Assembly: GCA_039034015.1 (NCBI GenBank)
Contig: JBCCBM010000007.1
Location: 91,289 to 155,288, forward strand
Source of the DNA: Pseudomonadota bacterium
Lineage (GTDB): Bacteria; Pseudomonadota; Alphaproteobacteria; Rhizobiales; Amorphaceae
DNA: 64,000 bases
Direction: 5' to 3'
Shown here: positions 38,285-43,115 of the stretch, piece after piece
Layout of the letters: every line of letters begins with the position of its first letter
How positions within the stretch are numbered: position 1 is the stretch's first letter
Position numbers and translations under genes: made by a program
The notes under the pieces: model-generated
Databases searched by the model: none
Seen by the model: only the letters and a program-made list of their open reading frames with translations
Told to the model about the DNA's origin: nothing

Positions 38285-38907
38285 GCGTCAAACTCCTTTG
38301 CCATGAGGCTGCCGATGGCGCGGGCCCCCTCGGCCGGCTCGGCCAAAAGGCCGGTTGCGGCGCCGCGCCGGTCGGCCTCTGGCTTGTGCTGGGCCAGTTT
38401 GAAGGCGCCCTTCAGCGTGTCGACCTTCAGCCGCACGCCCACAATGGCCCGGGAGAGGCGGGGAATGTACCCCTCCGGCGCATCCTCCACCGACCAGGGG
38501 GCCGTCCGGCCGGCCTCGTTCTCGTCCGTCATTGCGGCAAGGTGAGACAGGAGCGCGGGCGCCTCCATCGCCGTCATCACCCCTTCAGCGTGGATGACCA
38601 CATAGTTCCACGTGGGGACGACCTTGCCGTCTTCGGCTTTGCTCGCATACCAGCCGGGGGAGATGTAGGCCTGTGGGCCCTGAAAGATCGCCAACGAGGC
38701 GTGGCCAAGGGCCGAACAATGGTCGTTCGCCCGGGCAAAATGGGTCTCGATGGTGAGGCCGTCCGCGGCCTCGTGCACCACCGCGGGGGCGTGGGTGGCG
38801 TGATAGGCGCCCTTTGCGTGGGTGATGAAGAGCGCAAAGCGCACCTGCCGCATGACGCCGACCAGAACGTTGCGCCGCGTTTCTGAAAATTGCGCCGGCA
38901 CGTACAT
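38281..38907 (-). CDS. FMN-binding PaiB-family protein
   Basis: [47 protein letters not shown] overlap with polA. Confidence 0.88.
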
Positions 38908-39043: not shown

Positions 39044-41122
39044 GTGAGTAGACGCGCAGGCCGCCCCGCGGCGCCAAAACCCCTGCGCGCCGGGCCCCCG
39101 CCCAAGCGCCGCGCCCCCCAAAAACGGCGAAAGGCCGCGCCGAAAAAGCGCCGGTTTCGCCTCGCCCGATTCCTTTGGCGCAGCACCGTTGCGCTCACGC
39201 TGACGGGCCTTGTGGGCCTTACCGCCATCATCGCCTACTACGCCGCCACCATGCCCCCCATCGCCGAATGGGCCGTCCCCGCGCGCCCGCCCAACGTCGC
39301 GATTTTGTCCGAGCGGGGCCGCCTCATCGCCAACCGGGGCGACACGGGGGGCCGCGCCGTGACGCTCGCCGCGCTGCCCGATCATGTGCCCGAAGCGGTG
39401 ATCGCCATTGAGGATCGCCGGTTTTACAGCCACCCGGGCATCGACCCCATCGGCCTTGCGCGCGCGGTGATGGCCAACTTGCGCGCCGGCCGCCGTGTCC
39501 AAGGCGGGTCAACGTTGACGCAGCAGCTTGCGAAAAACCTCTTTCTCGACCCCTCGCGCACATTGGAGCGAAAAATCCAAGAGATGATCTTGGCCGTCTG
39601 GCTGGAAATCCAGTACGACAAGGGCGAGATCTTAGAAATGTACTTGAACCGCGTTTACCTCGGCGCGGGGGCAACGGGGGTGGACGGTGCCGCCCGCCGC
39701 TATTTTGATAAGCCCGCCGAAGATCTTTCCATCGCCGAGGCCGCCCTCATTGCGGGCCTTTTGAAGGCGCCCAGCGTCTATGCCCCCACCGTTGACGAGG
39801 CGCGCGCCAACGCCCGCGCCGCCACCGTCCTTGCCGCCATGCGCGAGGAAGGCTTCATCTCCGCCGGCGAACATCGCGCGGCGCGCGACACCCCCGCAAC
39901 GCTGAAAACCCCGGCGGTCGCAGCCTCAGGCGGCTATATTGCCGATTGGGTGGCTGATGTCCTGCCCGAACTCTCCGGCTCGGTGCGCGCCGATGTGATT
40001 GTGGAAACCTCCATCGACCTTGAACTTCAGGATCTTGCGGAGGAGGCGCTGGAGGCGCTGCTCGCCAAAGAGGGGGCGGAAAAGGGTGCTTCGCAGGGCG
40101 CTGTGGTGGTTTTGGATGCGGCGGGCGCCGTCAAAGCGCTGGTGGGCGGCCGGTCGTACGCGCAAAGCCAGTTCAACCGCGCCGTGGAGGCGGTGCGCCA
40201 GCCCGGCAGCGCGTTCAAGCCGTTCGTCTATCTCGCCGCGCTGGAAGACGGCTTGTCGGAGCAGACGATGCGCATCGACGGGCCAACCCGCATTGGCAAT
40301 TGGACCCCGCAAAACTACACCCGGCAGTATTATGGGCCAGTATCGCTGACGCGGGCACTTGCCCTGTCGCTCAACACCATTGCCGCGCAACTCACCAACG
40401 AGGTGGGGGCGCAGACGGTGGCACGGACGGCCGCGCGCATGGGCGTGCGCTCCCCGCTCAAGGCCAACGGGTCGCTCGCGCTTGGCACATCCGAGGTCAC
40501 GCTGCTTGAGCTTGCGACCGCCTACGTGCCTTTTTCCAATGGCGGGGTTGGGGTGGTGCCCCATGTGGTGCGCCGCATTCGCACGGTGGACGGCGCGCTC
40601 CTTTATGAGCGGCAGGTGGAGACGGCCGGCACCGTTGCCGCGCTTGACGATGTGGGCGCGATGAACCGCATGCTGACCACAGTGCTGGAGACCGGCACCG
40701 GCCAGCGCGCGCGCCTCAAGGGCTGGCAGGCCGCCGGGAAGACTGGCACCAGCCAAAATTGGCGGGACGCTTGGTTTGTGGGCTACACGGCGTTTTTCAC
40801 CGCCGGCGTGTGGCTTGGCAACGATGACAACGCGCCCACAAAGCGCGCCACCGGCGGCACACTGCCCGCGCTGTTGTGGACGCGGCTGATGGAAAAGGTG
40901 CACCGGGGTATGGTGCCTGCGGGCTTGCCGGGGGTTGAGCGTGCGCCGCGTGCGGTGGTCCCGGCCGACATTCCGCCTGACGATCCGTGGAATGCGCCGC
41001 GCACCGTGTCCGCCGGCCCCACGGTTTCTGCGCGTGATGGCGTGCCCGGCGCGCGCTCCCCCCGGGAGTGGACCGCCCCATCCGAGCGCCGCGGGTTTTT
41101 CGAGCGGCTCTTTGGGGGGTGA
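39044..41122 (+). CDS. class A penicillin-binding protein (transglycosylase/transpeptidase)
   Basis: GTG start with GGAG RBS, basic N-terminus plus [38 protein letters not shown]. Confidence 0.93.
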
Positions 41123-41185
41123 TGCTTGCCGCTTGGCGGGGGGTGGCGTACCCTTCAACCACATTTTCAATTAAGTGTGGTTCAA

Positions 41186-42133
41186 ATGAAAACACGAATT
41201 TGGTTTCAGAGATTTGCAATTCGCCTTGCTGTCATAGTGTCCGTATTGATGGCGGTTTGGTATTTTTTGCCGCTTACAATGGTCAGTGCTTCAAGTGTCA
41301 AAGGCTTTATTGTAGACATATTTTCATCGGAGAAAGGCGATGAATCGCTGTTCGACGCCAATATCCAAGCGGTGCGCGATAGTGCGCGGTTCAAAGCAAT
41401 GTCGAAGGAGGAGCAGCAAGAGTTCGACGACATGGTTGACGAGCTCGAGGAAGCCAAGGGTTCAGCGCCTGAGAAGAAGCTGTGGTCGGCCGAGCTCAGA
41501 AGCGTCGCAGAGATGCGCTTCGATTACCTTGATTTTTGCTTCAAGCGTAATCTCAAGCAGGTTTTTGATGAGGGGCGGCTTGATCGCCTACGTGCGTGCG
41601 GCCGCTACTATGTTGAGAACCTCGAGAACCCGAGTAAAATCTACTACATCCGCCGCGCGATCGACGATCAGCGGGACAACCTGAGGGCCGTCCTGCCCGA
41701 ATTGCGAGACCGACACACTTACAATGTTACATTCCCGGTCGCGTTGGCAATCGTGAGCTGGCTCCTCCTATTCACCTTCGCAAGACTGGCAATCGCAATC
41801 CCTTCTGCGATCGCAATTTTGTTGGTCTCAACAATCACACTGGGCGCCTTTGGCCGCGCCGAGCAGCTCCAAGCGGTCAACACCGCCGTGACACGCCTCC
41901 ATGTGTTGAAGGTGGAGGTGGACGGCGCCGTCATCCGCACCGTGGGGCGCACCTCAAAAGAGCCCGGTCTTTGGGCAAGCGACACGTCTCGAGAGAAAGT
42001 AACGTTCCCCAAAGAGCTCTCGGCAGAATATATGGAGCGGTTTCGCGAAATCATCGATGACCTTGCCACTGGCGCATCGGCAGGCATCAAAGGCCCGAAT
42101 TACGAGGGCGTCGTGCCTATAAAATTCCAGTAG
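41186..42133 (+). CDS. low-GC membrane protein with an N-terminal TM and a SLATT-like 2TM/helical C-terminal half
   Basis: 315-aa ORF with atypical composition. TM hairpin FPVALAIVSWLLLFTF/LAIAIPSAIAILLVSTITL followed by amphipathic helices. The family call is by eye. Confidence 0.75.
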   Translation: MKTRIWFQRFAIRLAVIVSVLMAVWYFLPLTMVSASSVKGFIVDIFSSEKGDESLFDANIQAVRDSARFKAMSKEEQQEFDDMVDELEEAKGSAPEKKLWSAELRSVAEMRFDYLDFCFKRNLKQVFDEGRLDRLRACGRYYVENLENPSKIYYIRRAIDDQRDNLRAVLPELRDRHTYNVTFPVALAIVSWLLLFTFARLAIAIPSAIAILLVSTITLGAFGRAEQLQAVNTAVTRLHVLKVEVDGAVIRTVGRTSKEPGLWASDTSREKVTFPKELSAEYMERFREIIDDLATGASAGIKGPNYEGVVPIKFQ

Positions 42134-42199
42134 CGGGCACGTCAGCCTCGGGCAGGGGGCTCGTCGTACTCTCGTCGGCGTCGACCATAGAGATGTGCG

Positions 42200-42718
42200 A
42201 TGCCGCCCTTAGAACGAGATCCACAACCGCCGGTGCGGCTCACCCCGCTCCTCACCAATCTGGCCCGCAGCGCCACCGCCGCGGGCTACATGGATGTTGC
42301 CGATTGGGCCAACTCCGAGCGCCAGGGCTATCGCTCGGACGTGCCGGTGTATCGCCGGGTGACGGGCGTCCCCATGGGGTTTAGCCCCATGAAGGGCTGG
42401 GTGCCGCTATTTGTGGAAAACAAAGCGCTCCTGCGCGAGGTGGGCGCCCACGGCCTGCGCCAGTCCATCGGCCACATCGAAAATGCCATCGCCAACTCCG
42501 ACAGCGGCAAGGCTTACGTCCACTACACGTCCGAAGAGATCGGCCTCATCAACATTGCCGCCGGCACGCGCTTTGCGCAAATGGCCTCCGCCATCGACAT
42601 TGGCGCGCTGCAGCGCATCGTCACCTCCGTCACCAGCCTTGCGCGCCAATGGTCCCACCAAATCCACGCGCGCACACCGCCGACCCCGCCAAAAGACCCG
42701 CCCACCATCGCCGCTTGA
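42200..42718 (+). CDS. stand-alone AbiTii-like domain protein
   Basis: LL..LA..A..AG...VADWANSERQGY..DVPVYRRVTG..MGFSPMKGWVP...RQSIGHIEN...IV..V......W fits the AbiTii pattern W..NEL.GY...VP.YR...G....FNP..GW.P...RQSI.EIE. Confidence 0.75.
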   Translation: MPPLERDPQPPVRLTPLLTNLARSATAAGYMDVADWANSERQGYRSDVPVYRRVTGVPMGFSPMKGWVPLFVENKALLREVGAHGLRQSIGHIENAIANSDSGKAYVHYTSEEIGLINIAAGTRFAQMASAIDIGALQRIVTSVTSLARQWSHQIHARTPPTPPKDPPTIAA

Positions 42719-42749: not shown

Positions 42750-43115
42750 ATGACGATCGCCGACGTCACCTACCTCGTGCCGCGTTTTGAAGCGGGCGCC
42801 GCCTTCCTCACCGATGTGCTCGCCTACCGCGACCTCACCCGCGAGCCCGCCTGGCCCGTCTTTGCCCCCACACGCCACGCCGGCGCCACCCTGCGCCTTG
42901 CGGAGCCAAAGCCGGGCGAGGCGGCCGCCATCGGCCGGCAGGCGGGCTCACGCGTTTTCCTCTTTCTGCGCGTTGCGGACATGGCGGCCGAGTGCGCAGC
43001 CCTTGCCCGCGCGGGCCACCCCATCGAAGAACCCCTGCGACACGAACCTTATGGCGCCATCGTCGTGATCCGCGACCCGTTCGGCAACCGGTGGGACATT
43101 ATCGAACCCGCCTGA
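42750..43115 (+). CDS. VOC/glyoxalase-family protein
   Basis: GRQAGSRVFLFLRVAD, RHEPYG.IVVIRDPFGNRWDIIEP. Confidence 0.85.
   Translation: MTIADVTYLVPRFEAGAAFLTDVLAYRDLTREPAWPVFAPTRHAGATLRLAEPKPGEAAAIGRQAGSRVFLFLRVADMAAECAALARAGHPIEEPLRHEPYGAIVVIRDPFGNRWDIIEPA

What the first reader, a model, noticed from the sequence alone, without database searches (positions are those of the whole stretch)
41186..42718. Candidate two-gene anti-phage module: SLATT-like membrane protein plus stand-alone AbiTii-like protein
Seen: two co-oriented genes 66 bp apart sit between a class A PBP and a glyoxalase. GC falls from 47/60 (41041-41100) to 18/60 (41161-41220) and 27/60 (41221-41280). Gene 1 has an N-terminal TM, a ~145-aa soluble region, a two-TM hairpin and a helical tail (GRAEQLQAVNTAVTRLHVLKVEVD...YMERFREII). 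Gene 2 has the AbiTii pattern (WANSERQGY, VPVYRR, FSPMKGWVP, RQSIGHIE) and no fused effector. Known: SLATT domains are 2TM effectors found in defence systems, AbiTii is named after the lactococcal AbiT abortive-infection system, and AbiTii domains usually occur fused to other domains. Inference: a sensor/effector pair that could kill infected cells through the membrane, in an architecture I do not recognise from named systems. The second gene has more host-like GC, so the two genes may have arrived separately.
Basis: partly seen in the sequence, partly recalled or inferred. Interest (0 to 1): 0.8.

Follow-up and report, generated by a model that had tools for sequence, protein, structure and literature searches.

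The report
Orphan membrane gene inserted beside AbiTii
The second gene is a real AbiTii-type (phage-abortion family) protein that sits alone behind the same cell-wall gene in related bacteria. The first gene is a foreign, one-of-a-kind membrane protein with no SLATT signature that was inserted next to it, so a paired defence system is not supported.

Summary

Gene 2 (42200-42718) is a genuine stand-alone AbiTii protein. It scores 58.7 bits against PF18864 (cut-off 27.6), keeps the W..E..GY..P.YR signature, and gives an alpha+beta AF2 model.

Gene 1 (41186-42133) is a real-looking coding ORF for a 3-TM protein. It matches no SLATT or other profile in Pfam, PADLOC, NCBIfam or PHROGs. Apart from itself, it has no homolog in 5.8 billion protein clusters, in an exhaustive phmmer search of 1.84 billion representatives, or in 40 relatives.

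Gene 2 orthologs (47-62% identity) lie directly 3' of the class A PBP gene in 5 of 5 same-genus (Acuticoccus) genomes and in 4 distinct metagenome loci. None of these loci has gene 1. The closest ortholog pairs show purifying selection (dN/dS 0.17-0.25).

Gene 1 has 53.7% GC against 65.4% for the genome, the lowest 0.24% of windows. It is therefore a strain-specific insertion of about 1 kb into the PBP-AbiTii spacer.

The "two-gene module" rests on adjacency in one genome only. An AbiT-like pairing (upstream partner plus AbiTii) stays possible at about 20%, but nothing supports it. Interest is low to moderate.

The parts
39200..41122 (+). Class A penicillin-binding protein gene (3' part; the ORF opens at 38822). 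This is the conserved upstream anchor of the locus.
   Evidence: It is 65-75% identical to one ortholog in 15 of 16 other same-genus genomes. Orthologs carry PF00912 Transgly + PF00905 Transpeptidase.
41154..42140 (+). Low-GC insertion of about 1 kb that carries only gene 1. The boundaries are approximate.
   Evidence: GC is 40% at 41150-41350 and 53.7% over the gene, against 65.4% for the genome. The segment is absent from all syntenic PBP-AbiTii loci. The sequence 3' of it resembles the ancestral intergenic spacer. No target-site duplication or terminal inverted repeat was found.
41154..41185 (+). Imperfect palindrome TTCAACCACATTT / AAGTGTGGTTCAA that abuts the gene 1 ATG. Its role is unknown (operator or 5' hairpin).
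   Evidence: Inverted repeat I7, 13-nt arms, 85% complementary. It folds as a 10-bp hairpin within a -24.9 kcal/mol structure, z = -2.0. It is unique in the genome.
41186..42133 (+). Gene 1: an ORFan 315-aa predicted membrane protein with an N-terminal TM/signal-anchor, a charged helical region of about 145 aa, a 2-TM hairpin and a 93-aa tail.
   Evidence: No family hit. No homolog other than itself. The single-sequence AF2 model is poor, pLDDT 47.
42134..42199 (+). The 66-bp spacer, probably the retained native upstream region of the AbiTii gene.
   Evidence: CTCGGGCAGG...CGTA at 42147-42170 matches (T)TCGGGCAGG...CGTAG, or CCGTGCAGG...GTAG, at a similar distance from the AbiTii ATG in L026, L002 and L003. 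No terminator-like site was found on the + strand between 40800 and 43300.
42200..42718 (+). Gene 2: a stand-alone AbiTii-domain protein of 172 aa.
   Evidence: PF18864 at 58.7 bits (cut-off 27.6) and PADLOC PDLC02334 at 2.1e-16. Invariant W36, E40, G43, Y44, P49 and R52 are shared with canonical AbiTii. The AF2 model has pLDDT 80 and is alpha+beta.
42750..43115 (+). Glyoxalase/VOC-family gene, 121 aa (context). It is not found in the other syntenic loci.
   Evidence: PF00903 on the identical Logan contig. tblastn found no match in L002, L003, L020-L023 or L026.

Best explanation
These are two unrelated genes that are neighbours by accident of insertion.

Gene 2 is an effector-less AbiTii-family gene. 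It has been resident directly behind the class A PBP gene in a clade of Acuticoccus. It is kept under purifying selection on its own and probably retains its own upstream region.

Gene 1 is a strain-specific, horizontally acquired ORFan. It encodes a three-TM membrane protein and arrived as a low-GC segment of about 1 kb dropped into the PBP-AbiTii spacer, with an AT-rich 5' end of its own.

Shown: the AbiTii identity, the synteny, the absence of gene 1 elsewhere, the foreign composition, and the coding-like features.

Inferred: gene 1 acts independently as an accessory envelope protein of unknown role. The AbiTii protein, by analogy with AbiTii-HEPN fusions and lactococcal AbiT, is a sensor or adaptor-like domain that would need an effector in trans.
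For: - AbiTii identity.
- Synteny: a gene 2 ortholog lies immediately 3' of the PBP gene (gaps of 79-230 bp, measured at six loci), with no gene between, in G008, G010, G011, G013 and G016. The same holds in metagenome loci L023/L024, L025 and L026-L028.
- G003 has PBP and SDR directly adjacent.
- dN/dS is 0.17-0.25 among the closest ortholog pairs, all of which lack gene 1.
- Gene 1 has no homolog: 5.8e9 clusters, exhaustive phmmer of 1.84e9 representatives, 40 relatives, phages and plasmids, and no paralog in its own genome.
- Composition: gene 1 has 53.7% GC and GC3 0.64, against 65.5% and 0.81 for gene 2. It falls in the lowest 0.24% of genome windows.
- The spacer 3' of gene 1 resembles the ancestral PBP-AbiTii intergenic region.
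- The two proteins share no motif.
- The whole run from the PBP gene to the ABC transporter is co-oriented with short gaps, so a 66-bp gap is not specific evidence of coupling.
Against: - The gene order (an upstream partner with hydrophobic segments, then AbiTii) mirrors the archetypal two-gene AbiT.
- A stand-alone AbiTii domain lacks any effector, so an adjacent membrane protein is a natural candidate.
- No terminator-like site separates the two genes, so read-through co-transcription is possible.
- Foreign genes tend to accrete next to defence genes.
Confidence: 0.65

Rival explanations
1. The pair is a newly assembled AbiT-like two-component abortive-infection system. The resident AbiTii protein senses a phage cue and the recently captured membrane protein (gene 1) is its effector, killing or arresting the cell by damaging the membrane.
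For: - Gene 1 is upstream, co-oriented and 66 bp away, with no terminator-like site between.
- Lactococcal AbiT is a two-gene system, AbiTi then AbiTii (PMC13064643). From my own recollection of Bouchard 2002, which was not held, AbiTi needs a hydrophobic C-terminal region.
- AbiTii domains are normally N-terminal to effector domains (PMC3710099), and this one has none.
- Other AbiTii proteins show membrane links: a C-terminal TM helix in L030 and a small 3-TM ORF upstream in L029.
Against: - Gene 1 has no homolog anywhere, so there is no co-occurrence.
- Gene 2 orthologs persist under purifying selection without any partner.
- The two proteins share no motif.
- 53 canonical AbiTii loci show no consistent TM neighbour.
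- The neighbourhood is not a defence island.
Confidence: 0.2
2. Gene 1 is not a functional gene. It would be an open frame in a fragment of foreign DNA, for example a decaying remnant of a mobile element, that is annotated only because it is long.
For: - It has no homolog in about 15 billion proteins.
- There is no recognisable Shine-Dalgarno sequence before any candidate start.
- Gene callers disagree on the start, 315 aa against 294 aa.
- The AF2 model is poor, pLDDT 47.
Against: - It has 315 stop-free codons at 54% GC, while the other five frames hold only ORFs of 83-123 aa.
- It shows coding-type GC periodicity, 0.58/0.39/0.64.
- It has three well-formed TM helices, with positive charges before TM1.
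Confidence: 0.1
3. Gene 1 is a highly diverged SLATT-family pore-forming effector.
For: It has a 2-TM hairpin followed by a helical segment. This matches the general shape of SLATT domains, from my own knowledge of Burroughs et al. 2015.
Against: - No SLATT family (all are in Pfam-A), and no PADLOC model, matched even at E<=10.
- No nucleotide-signalling, SMODS/SLOG or reverse-transcriptase partner lies nearby.
- An extra N-terminal TM helix and a 145-aa domain precede the hairpin.
Confidence: 0.04

Closest known systems
AbiTii domain family (Pfam PF18864; Anantharaman et al. 2013, PMC3710099)
   Same: Gene 2 matches the profile above the curated cut-off. It keeps the signature with the conserved Glu (W36-x3-E40-x2-G43-Y44 ... 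P49-x-Y-R52) and is predicted to be alpha+beta.
   Different: At 172 aa it is stand-alone. Most relatives found here are single proteins of about 305 aa with a C-terminal domain, and the literature describes fusions to c2405/Ymh HEPN. It scores only 58 bits, against 107-142 bits for canonical alphaproteobacterial members. It sits in a housekeeping context behind a PBP gene, not in a defence island.
Lactococcus lactis AbiT (AbiTi 127 aa + AbiTii 213 aa; Bouchard et al. 2002, reviewed in PMC13064643)
   Same: It has a stand-alone AbiTii protein preceded by a co-oriented upstream gene.
   Different: Gene 1 is 315 aa with three TM helices and has no detectable similarity to anything. It is not conserved with the AbiTii gene, it was acquired separately, and there are no phenotype data.
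SLATT 2-TM effector domains (Pfam SLATT_1-6)
   Same: It has a 2-TM hairpin followed by a helical segment.
   Different: There is no profile match, no nucleotide-signalling or RT partner, and the architecture has additional elements (an N-terminal TM helix and a 145-aa soluble region).

Membership tests
AbiTii (PF18864) | Profile match above Pfam's gathering score | tested here: met
   58.7 bits against a cut-off of 27.6, covering residues 13-159. PADLOC PDLC02334 at 2.1e-16.
AbiTii (PF18864) | Conserved N-terminal signature with the highly conserved glutamate (PMC3710099) | tested here: met
   W36, E40, G43, Y44, P49 and R52 are invariant in an alignment with canonical AbiTii proteins and with orthologs.
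AbiTii (PF18864) | Globular alpha+beta fold of about 180 aa | tested here: met
   The AF2 model built with 9 sequences has pLDDT 80.4 and contains 6 helices and 4 strands. Foldseek found no PDB chain with a similar fold at E<=0.001.
AbiT two-gene system | A partner gene (AbiTi-like) that is conserved together with AbiTii | tested here: not met
   Gene 1 has no homolog. All 9 distinct syntenic ortholog loci lack it.
AbiT two-gene system | Sequence similarity of the partner to AbiTi | tested here: inconclusive
   Gene 1 has no PADLOC or Pfam hit. I could not confirm that an AbiTi model is in those libraries.
AbiT two-gene system | Phage resistance that requires both genes | not testable with these tools
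   This needs expression and phage challenge experiments.
SLATT | Profile match to any SLATT family | tested here: not met
   Pfam-A hmmscan at E<=10 returned only DUF5313 (0.025) and TipAS (0.033). PADLOC returned 0 families.
SLATT | 2-TM hairpin core | tested here: met
   Hydrophobic segments at 179-198 and 200-222. This feature is generic and not diagnostic.
SLATT | Genomic association with SMODS/SLOG/CBASS/RT-type partners | tested here: not met
   The neighbours are the PBP gene, AbiTii, glyoxalase, SDR and an ABC transporter.

The most novel reading that the evidence does not exclude
A resident, effector-less AbiTii sensor has just captured a completely new membrane effector with no relatives in 15 billion proteins. 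That would be a snapshot of how two-component abortive-infection systems are assembled from parts.
Probability: 0.15. Interest if true: 0.65.

Novelty: new member of a known kind. Interest (0 to 1): 0.25.

Why it matters
As it stands, little. Gene 2 adds a divergent stand-alone branch to a known family that is mechanistically opaque, and gene 1 is an uninterpretable ORFan.

Two points have modest value. First, an AbiTii-family gene is kept under purifying selection in a fixed housekeeping position (behind PBP1A) with no effector. So AbiTii domains can function without a fused or adjacent partner, and "AbiTii" annotation alone should not be read as a defence system. Second, if the pair did prove functional, it would show effector capture by a sensor gene in the act.

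Tried and rejected
- SLATT or any other family for gene 1: Pfam, PADLOC, NCBIfam, PHROGs and PDB sequence search were all negative.
- Homologs of gene 1: none in the word-indexed search, exhaustive phmmer, 40 relatives, phage and plasmid tblastn, or its own genome. The only other record is a Logan contig that is 100% identical over 4183 bp, that is, the same organism.
- Structure of gene 1: single-sequence AF2 gave pLDDT 47, unusable for a fold search.
- Mobile-element signatures around the insertion: no convincing direct or terminal inverted repeats.
- Promoter and terminator scan: nothing informative at the gene boundaries.
- Palindrome at 41154-41185 as a regulon operator: it is unique in the genome.
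- General rule 'stand-alone AbiTii pairs with a TM protein': in 53 canonical AbiTii loci nearly all are fused proteins of about 305 aa with no consistent TM neighbour. My gene calling there was crude.
- Shared tail motif between AbiTii and partner (a lead from earlier notes): absent.
- Fold search of the gene 2 model: no significant PDB match. The weak roadblock/longin-like hits (E about 1-4, TM below 0.25) were rejected as noise.
- Bouchard 2002 was not held.
- A broad AbiTii alignment was too divergent for the search for related loci.

Full report
**Observation**

The two ORFs exist as described. Gene 1 is 41186-42133 (+), 315 aa. Gene 2 is 42200-42718 (+), 172 aa, 66 bp downstream.

Gene 1 has 53.7% GC in a 65.4% GC genome. 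That places it in the lowest 0.24% of 948-bp windows, about 3.5 sd below the mean. Its first 60 codons have 41.7% GC.

Kyte-Doolittle analysis gives three hydrophobic segments, at residues 14-33, 179-198 and 200-222. Four K/R residues precede the first. The region 34-178 is strongly charged (25 K/R, 30 D/E) and predicted helical, and a 93-residue tail follows the hairpin.

All quoted peptide strings are present. The upstream gene is a class A PBP: its orthologs carry Transgly + Transpeptidase and are 65-75% identical. The downstream gene is a 121-aa PF00903 glyoxalase.

**Gene 2 is AbiTii**

- It scores 58.7 bits against PF18864, whose cut-off is 27.6, and matches PADLOC's AbiTii model at 2.1e-16.
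- Aligned with canonical alphaproteobacterial AbiTii proteins, it keeps the only invariant columns: W36, E40, G43, Y44, P49 and R52. This includes the 'highly conserved glutamate' noted when the domain was defined (PMC3710099).
- An AF2 model built on nine orthologs has pLDDT 80 and is alpha+beta. Foldseek found no PDB chain with a similar fold.
- The domain is rare in the class, found in 9 of 401 sampled genomes.
- Most relatives are proteins of about 305 aa with a C-terminal extension. This agrees with the literature description of AbiTii as an N-terminal domain fused to HEPN effectors (PMC3710099).

**Gene 1 is not recognisably SLATT or anything else**

Pfam-A (which contains the SLATT families), PADLOC, NCBIfam, PHROGs and PDB sequences gave only noise, with a best E of 0.025.

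The only match in 5.8 billion protein clusters is itself. The same holds for an exhaustive phmmer pass over 1.84 billion representatives. It is absent from 40 relatives, from phage and plasmid collections and from the rest of its own genome. The single other record is a Logan contig identical over 4183 bp, which is the same organism.

It still looks like a real gene. It has 315 stop-free codons at 54% GC, while the other frames hold at most 123 aa. Its GC1/2/3 values are 0.58/0.39/0.64, and its TM helices are well formed. Single-sequence AF2 was uninformative, with pLDDT 47.

**The pair is not a conserved module**

Gene 2 has orthologs of 47-62% identity and 167-172 aa.

- In all five same-genus genomes that have one (the genus is Acuticoccus, from the name attached to P0008), the gene lies directly 3' of the PBP gene and is followed by the SDR gene.
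- The same holds in metagenome contigs L023/L024, L025 and L026-L028. Gaps measured at six of these loci are 79-230 bp.
- One genus member, G003, has PBP and SDR directly adjacent.
- Only L004/L005 place the gene elsewhere, next to a sulfatase and a lipoprotein.
- None of these loci has anything in the position of gene 1.
- Among the closest ortholog pairs dN/dS is 0.17-0.25, so the stand-alone AbiTii gene is maintained without gene 1.

The 66-bp spacer before gene 2 contains CTCGGGCAGG...CGTA. This matches a motif at a similar distance from the ATG in the ancestral PBP-AbiTii spacer of L026, L002 and L003. By my own estimate a 9-mer match of this kind has a chance probability of about 0.02-0.05, so this point is suggestive only.

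Together with the GC profile, this places an insertion of about 1 kb at roughly 41154-42140, just after the PBP stop codon. No target duplication or terminal repeat was found. An imperfect palindrome at 41154-41185 abuts the gene 1 ATG and is unique in the genome.

**How it most likely works**

*Independent neighbours, 65%.* The AbiTii gene is a long-resident accessory gene of this lineage with its own upstream region. Gene 1 is a recent foreign ORFan encoding an envelope protein of unknown role.

The co-orientation and short gap are not discriminating. Every gene from the PBP gene through the ABC transporter is co-oriented with gaps of 15-66 bp.

What the AbiTii protein does alone is unknown. 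By analogy with its fused relatives it is a sensor or adaptor domain that would need an effector in trans.

*AbiT-like pair, about 20%.* The main rival is that gene 1 has become that effector. Lactococcal AbiT is itself two genes, AbiTi upstream of AbiTii (PMC13064643). From my recollection of Bouchard 2002, which was not held, AbiTi needs a hydrophobic C-terminal region.

I also saw membrane links in other AbiTii loci: a C-terminal TM helix in L030 and a small 3-TM ORF upstream of a truncated AbiTii in Dongia mobilis. Earlier notes of this scan report AbiTii-partner pairs that share a tail motif. I tested that here and found none.

*Smaller rivals.* Gene 1 may be non-functional (about 10%) or a diverged SLATT (about 4%).

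**Comparison and novelty**

Gene 2 is a new, divergent, stand-alone member of a known family. Gene 1 cannot be filed anywhere. The proposed system rests on adjacency in one genome.

Both are met for gene 1 and for the pairing, while the AbiTii call stands.

**Limits**

- No HHpred-grade profile comparison for gene 1 was possible, since it has no homologs to build a profile from.
- The neighbour survey used a crude ORF caller.

Noticed in passing
window 39200-42718; L002, L003, L020-L026: A stand-alone AbiTii-family gene is fixed immediately 3' of the class A PBP gene across an Acuticoccus clade and related metagenome contigs. The context is purely housekeeping (polA-PBP-AbiTii-SDR-ABC), and dN/dS is 0.17-0.25. 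This is an unusual, non-island setting for an 'Abi' family gene.
   Followed up: partly
window 42750-43115: A 121-aa glyoxalase/VOC gene lies between AbiTii and the SDR gene. It is absent from the other syntenic loci, so the PBP-SDR interval of this strain has gained two extra genes (gene 1 and this one).
   Followed up: partly
L029 = L038 (Dongia mobilis) 1160-2085: A 200-aa, apparently truncated canonical AbiTii gene is preceded by a small ORF of about 85 aa with about three TM helices. It is flanked by a large ATPase/nuclease-like ORF (not profile-checked) and a fragment that looks like a tyrosine integrase.
   Followed up: no
L030 1177-2046 (-): A 289-aa AbiTii protein with a C-terminal hydrophobic helix (residues 266-287), that is, a membrane-anchored AbiTii.
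   Followed up: no
L002, L003, L023, L024: In these loci the AbiTii reading frame is the same frame as the PBP gene, and a single stop codon separates the two. This is probably chance in high-GC DNA (two independent cases out of four lineages).
   Followed up: no
window 41186/41249 and 42200/42233: Gene callers disagree on both starts. Gene 1 is 315 aa (NCBI) or 294 aa (Logan), and gene 2 is 161 aa (NCBI) or 172 aa (Logan). Neither gene has an obvious Shine-Dalgarno sequence.
   Followed up: partly
L013, L014, L016-L019: In the other same-genus genomes the PBP gene is followed by a different housekeeping run. From reading the ORF N-termini only, this looks like a GNAT-like gene, an inositol-monophosphatase-like gene, an amidohydrolase-like gene and a response regulator. 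The PBP-SDR synteny therefore marks only part of the genus.
   Followed up: partly
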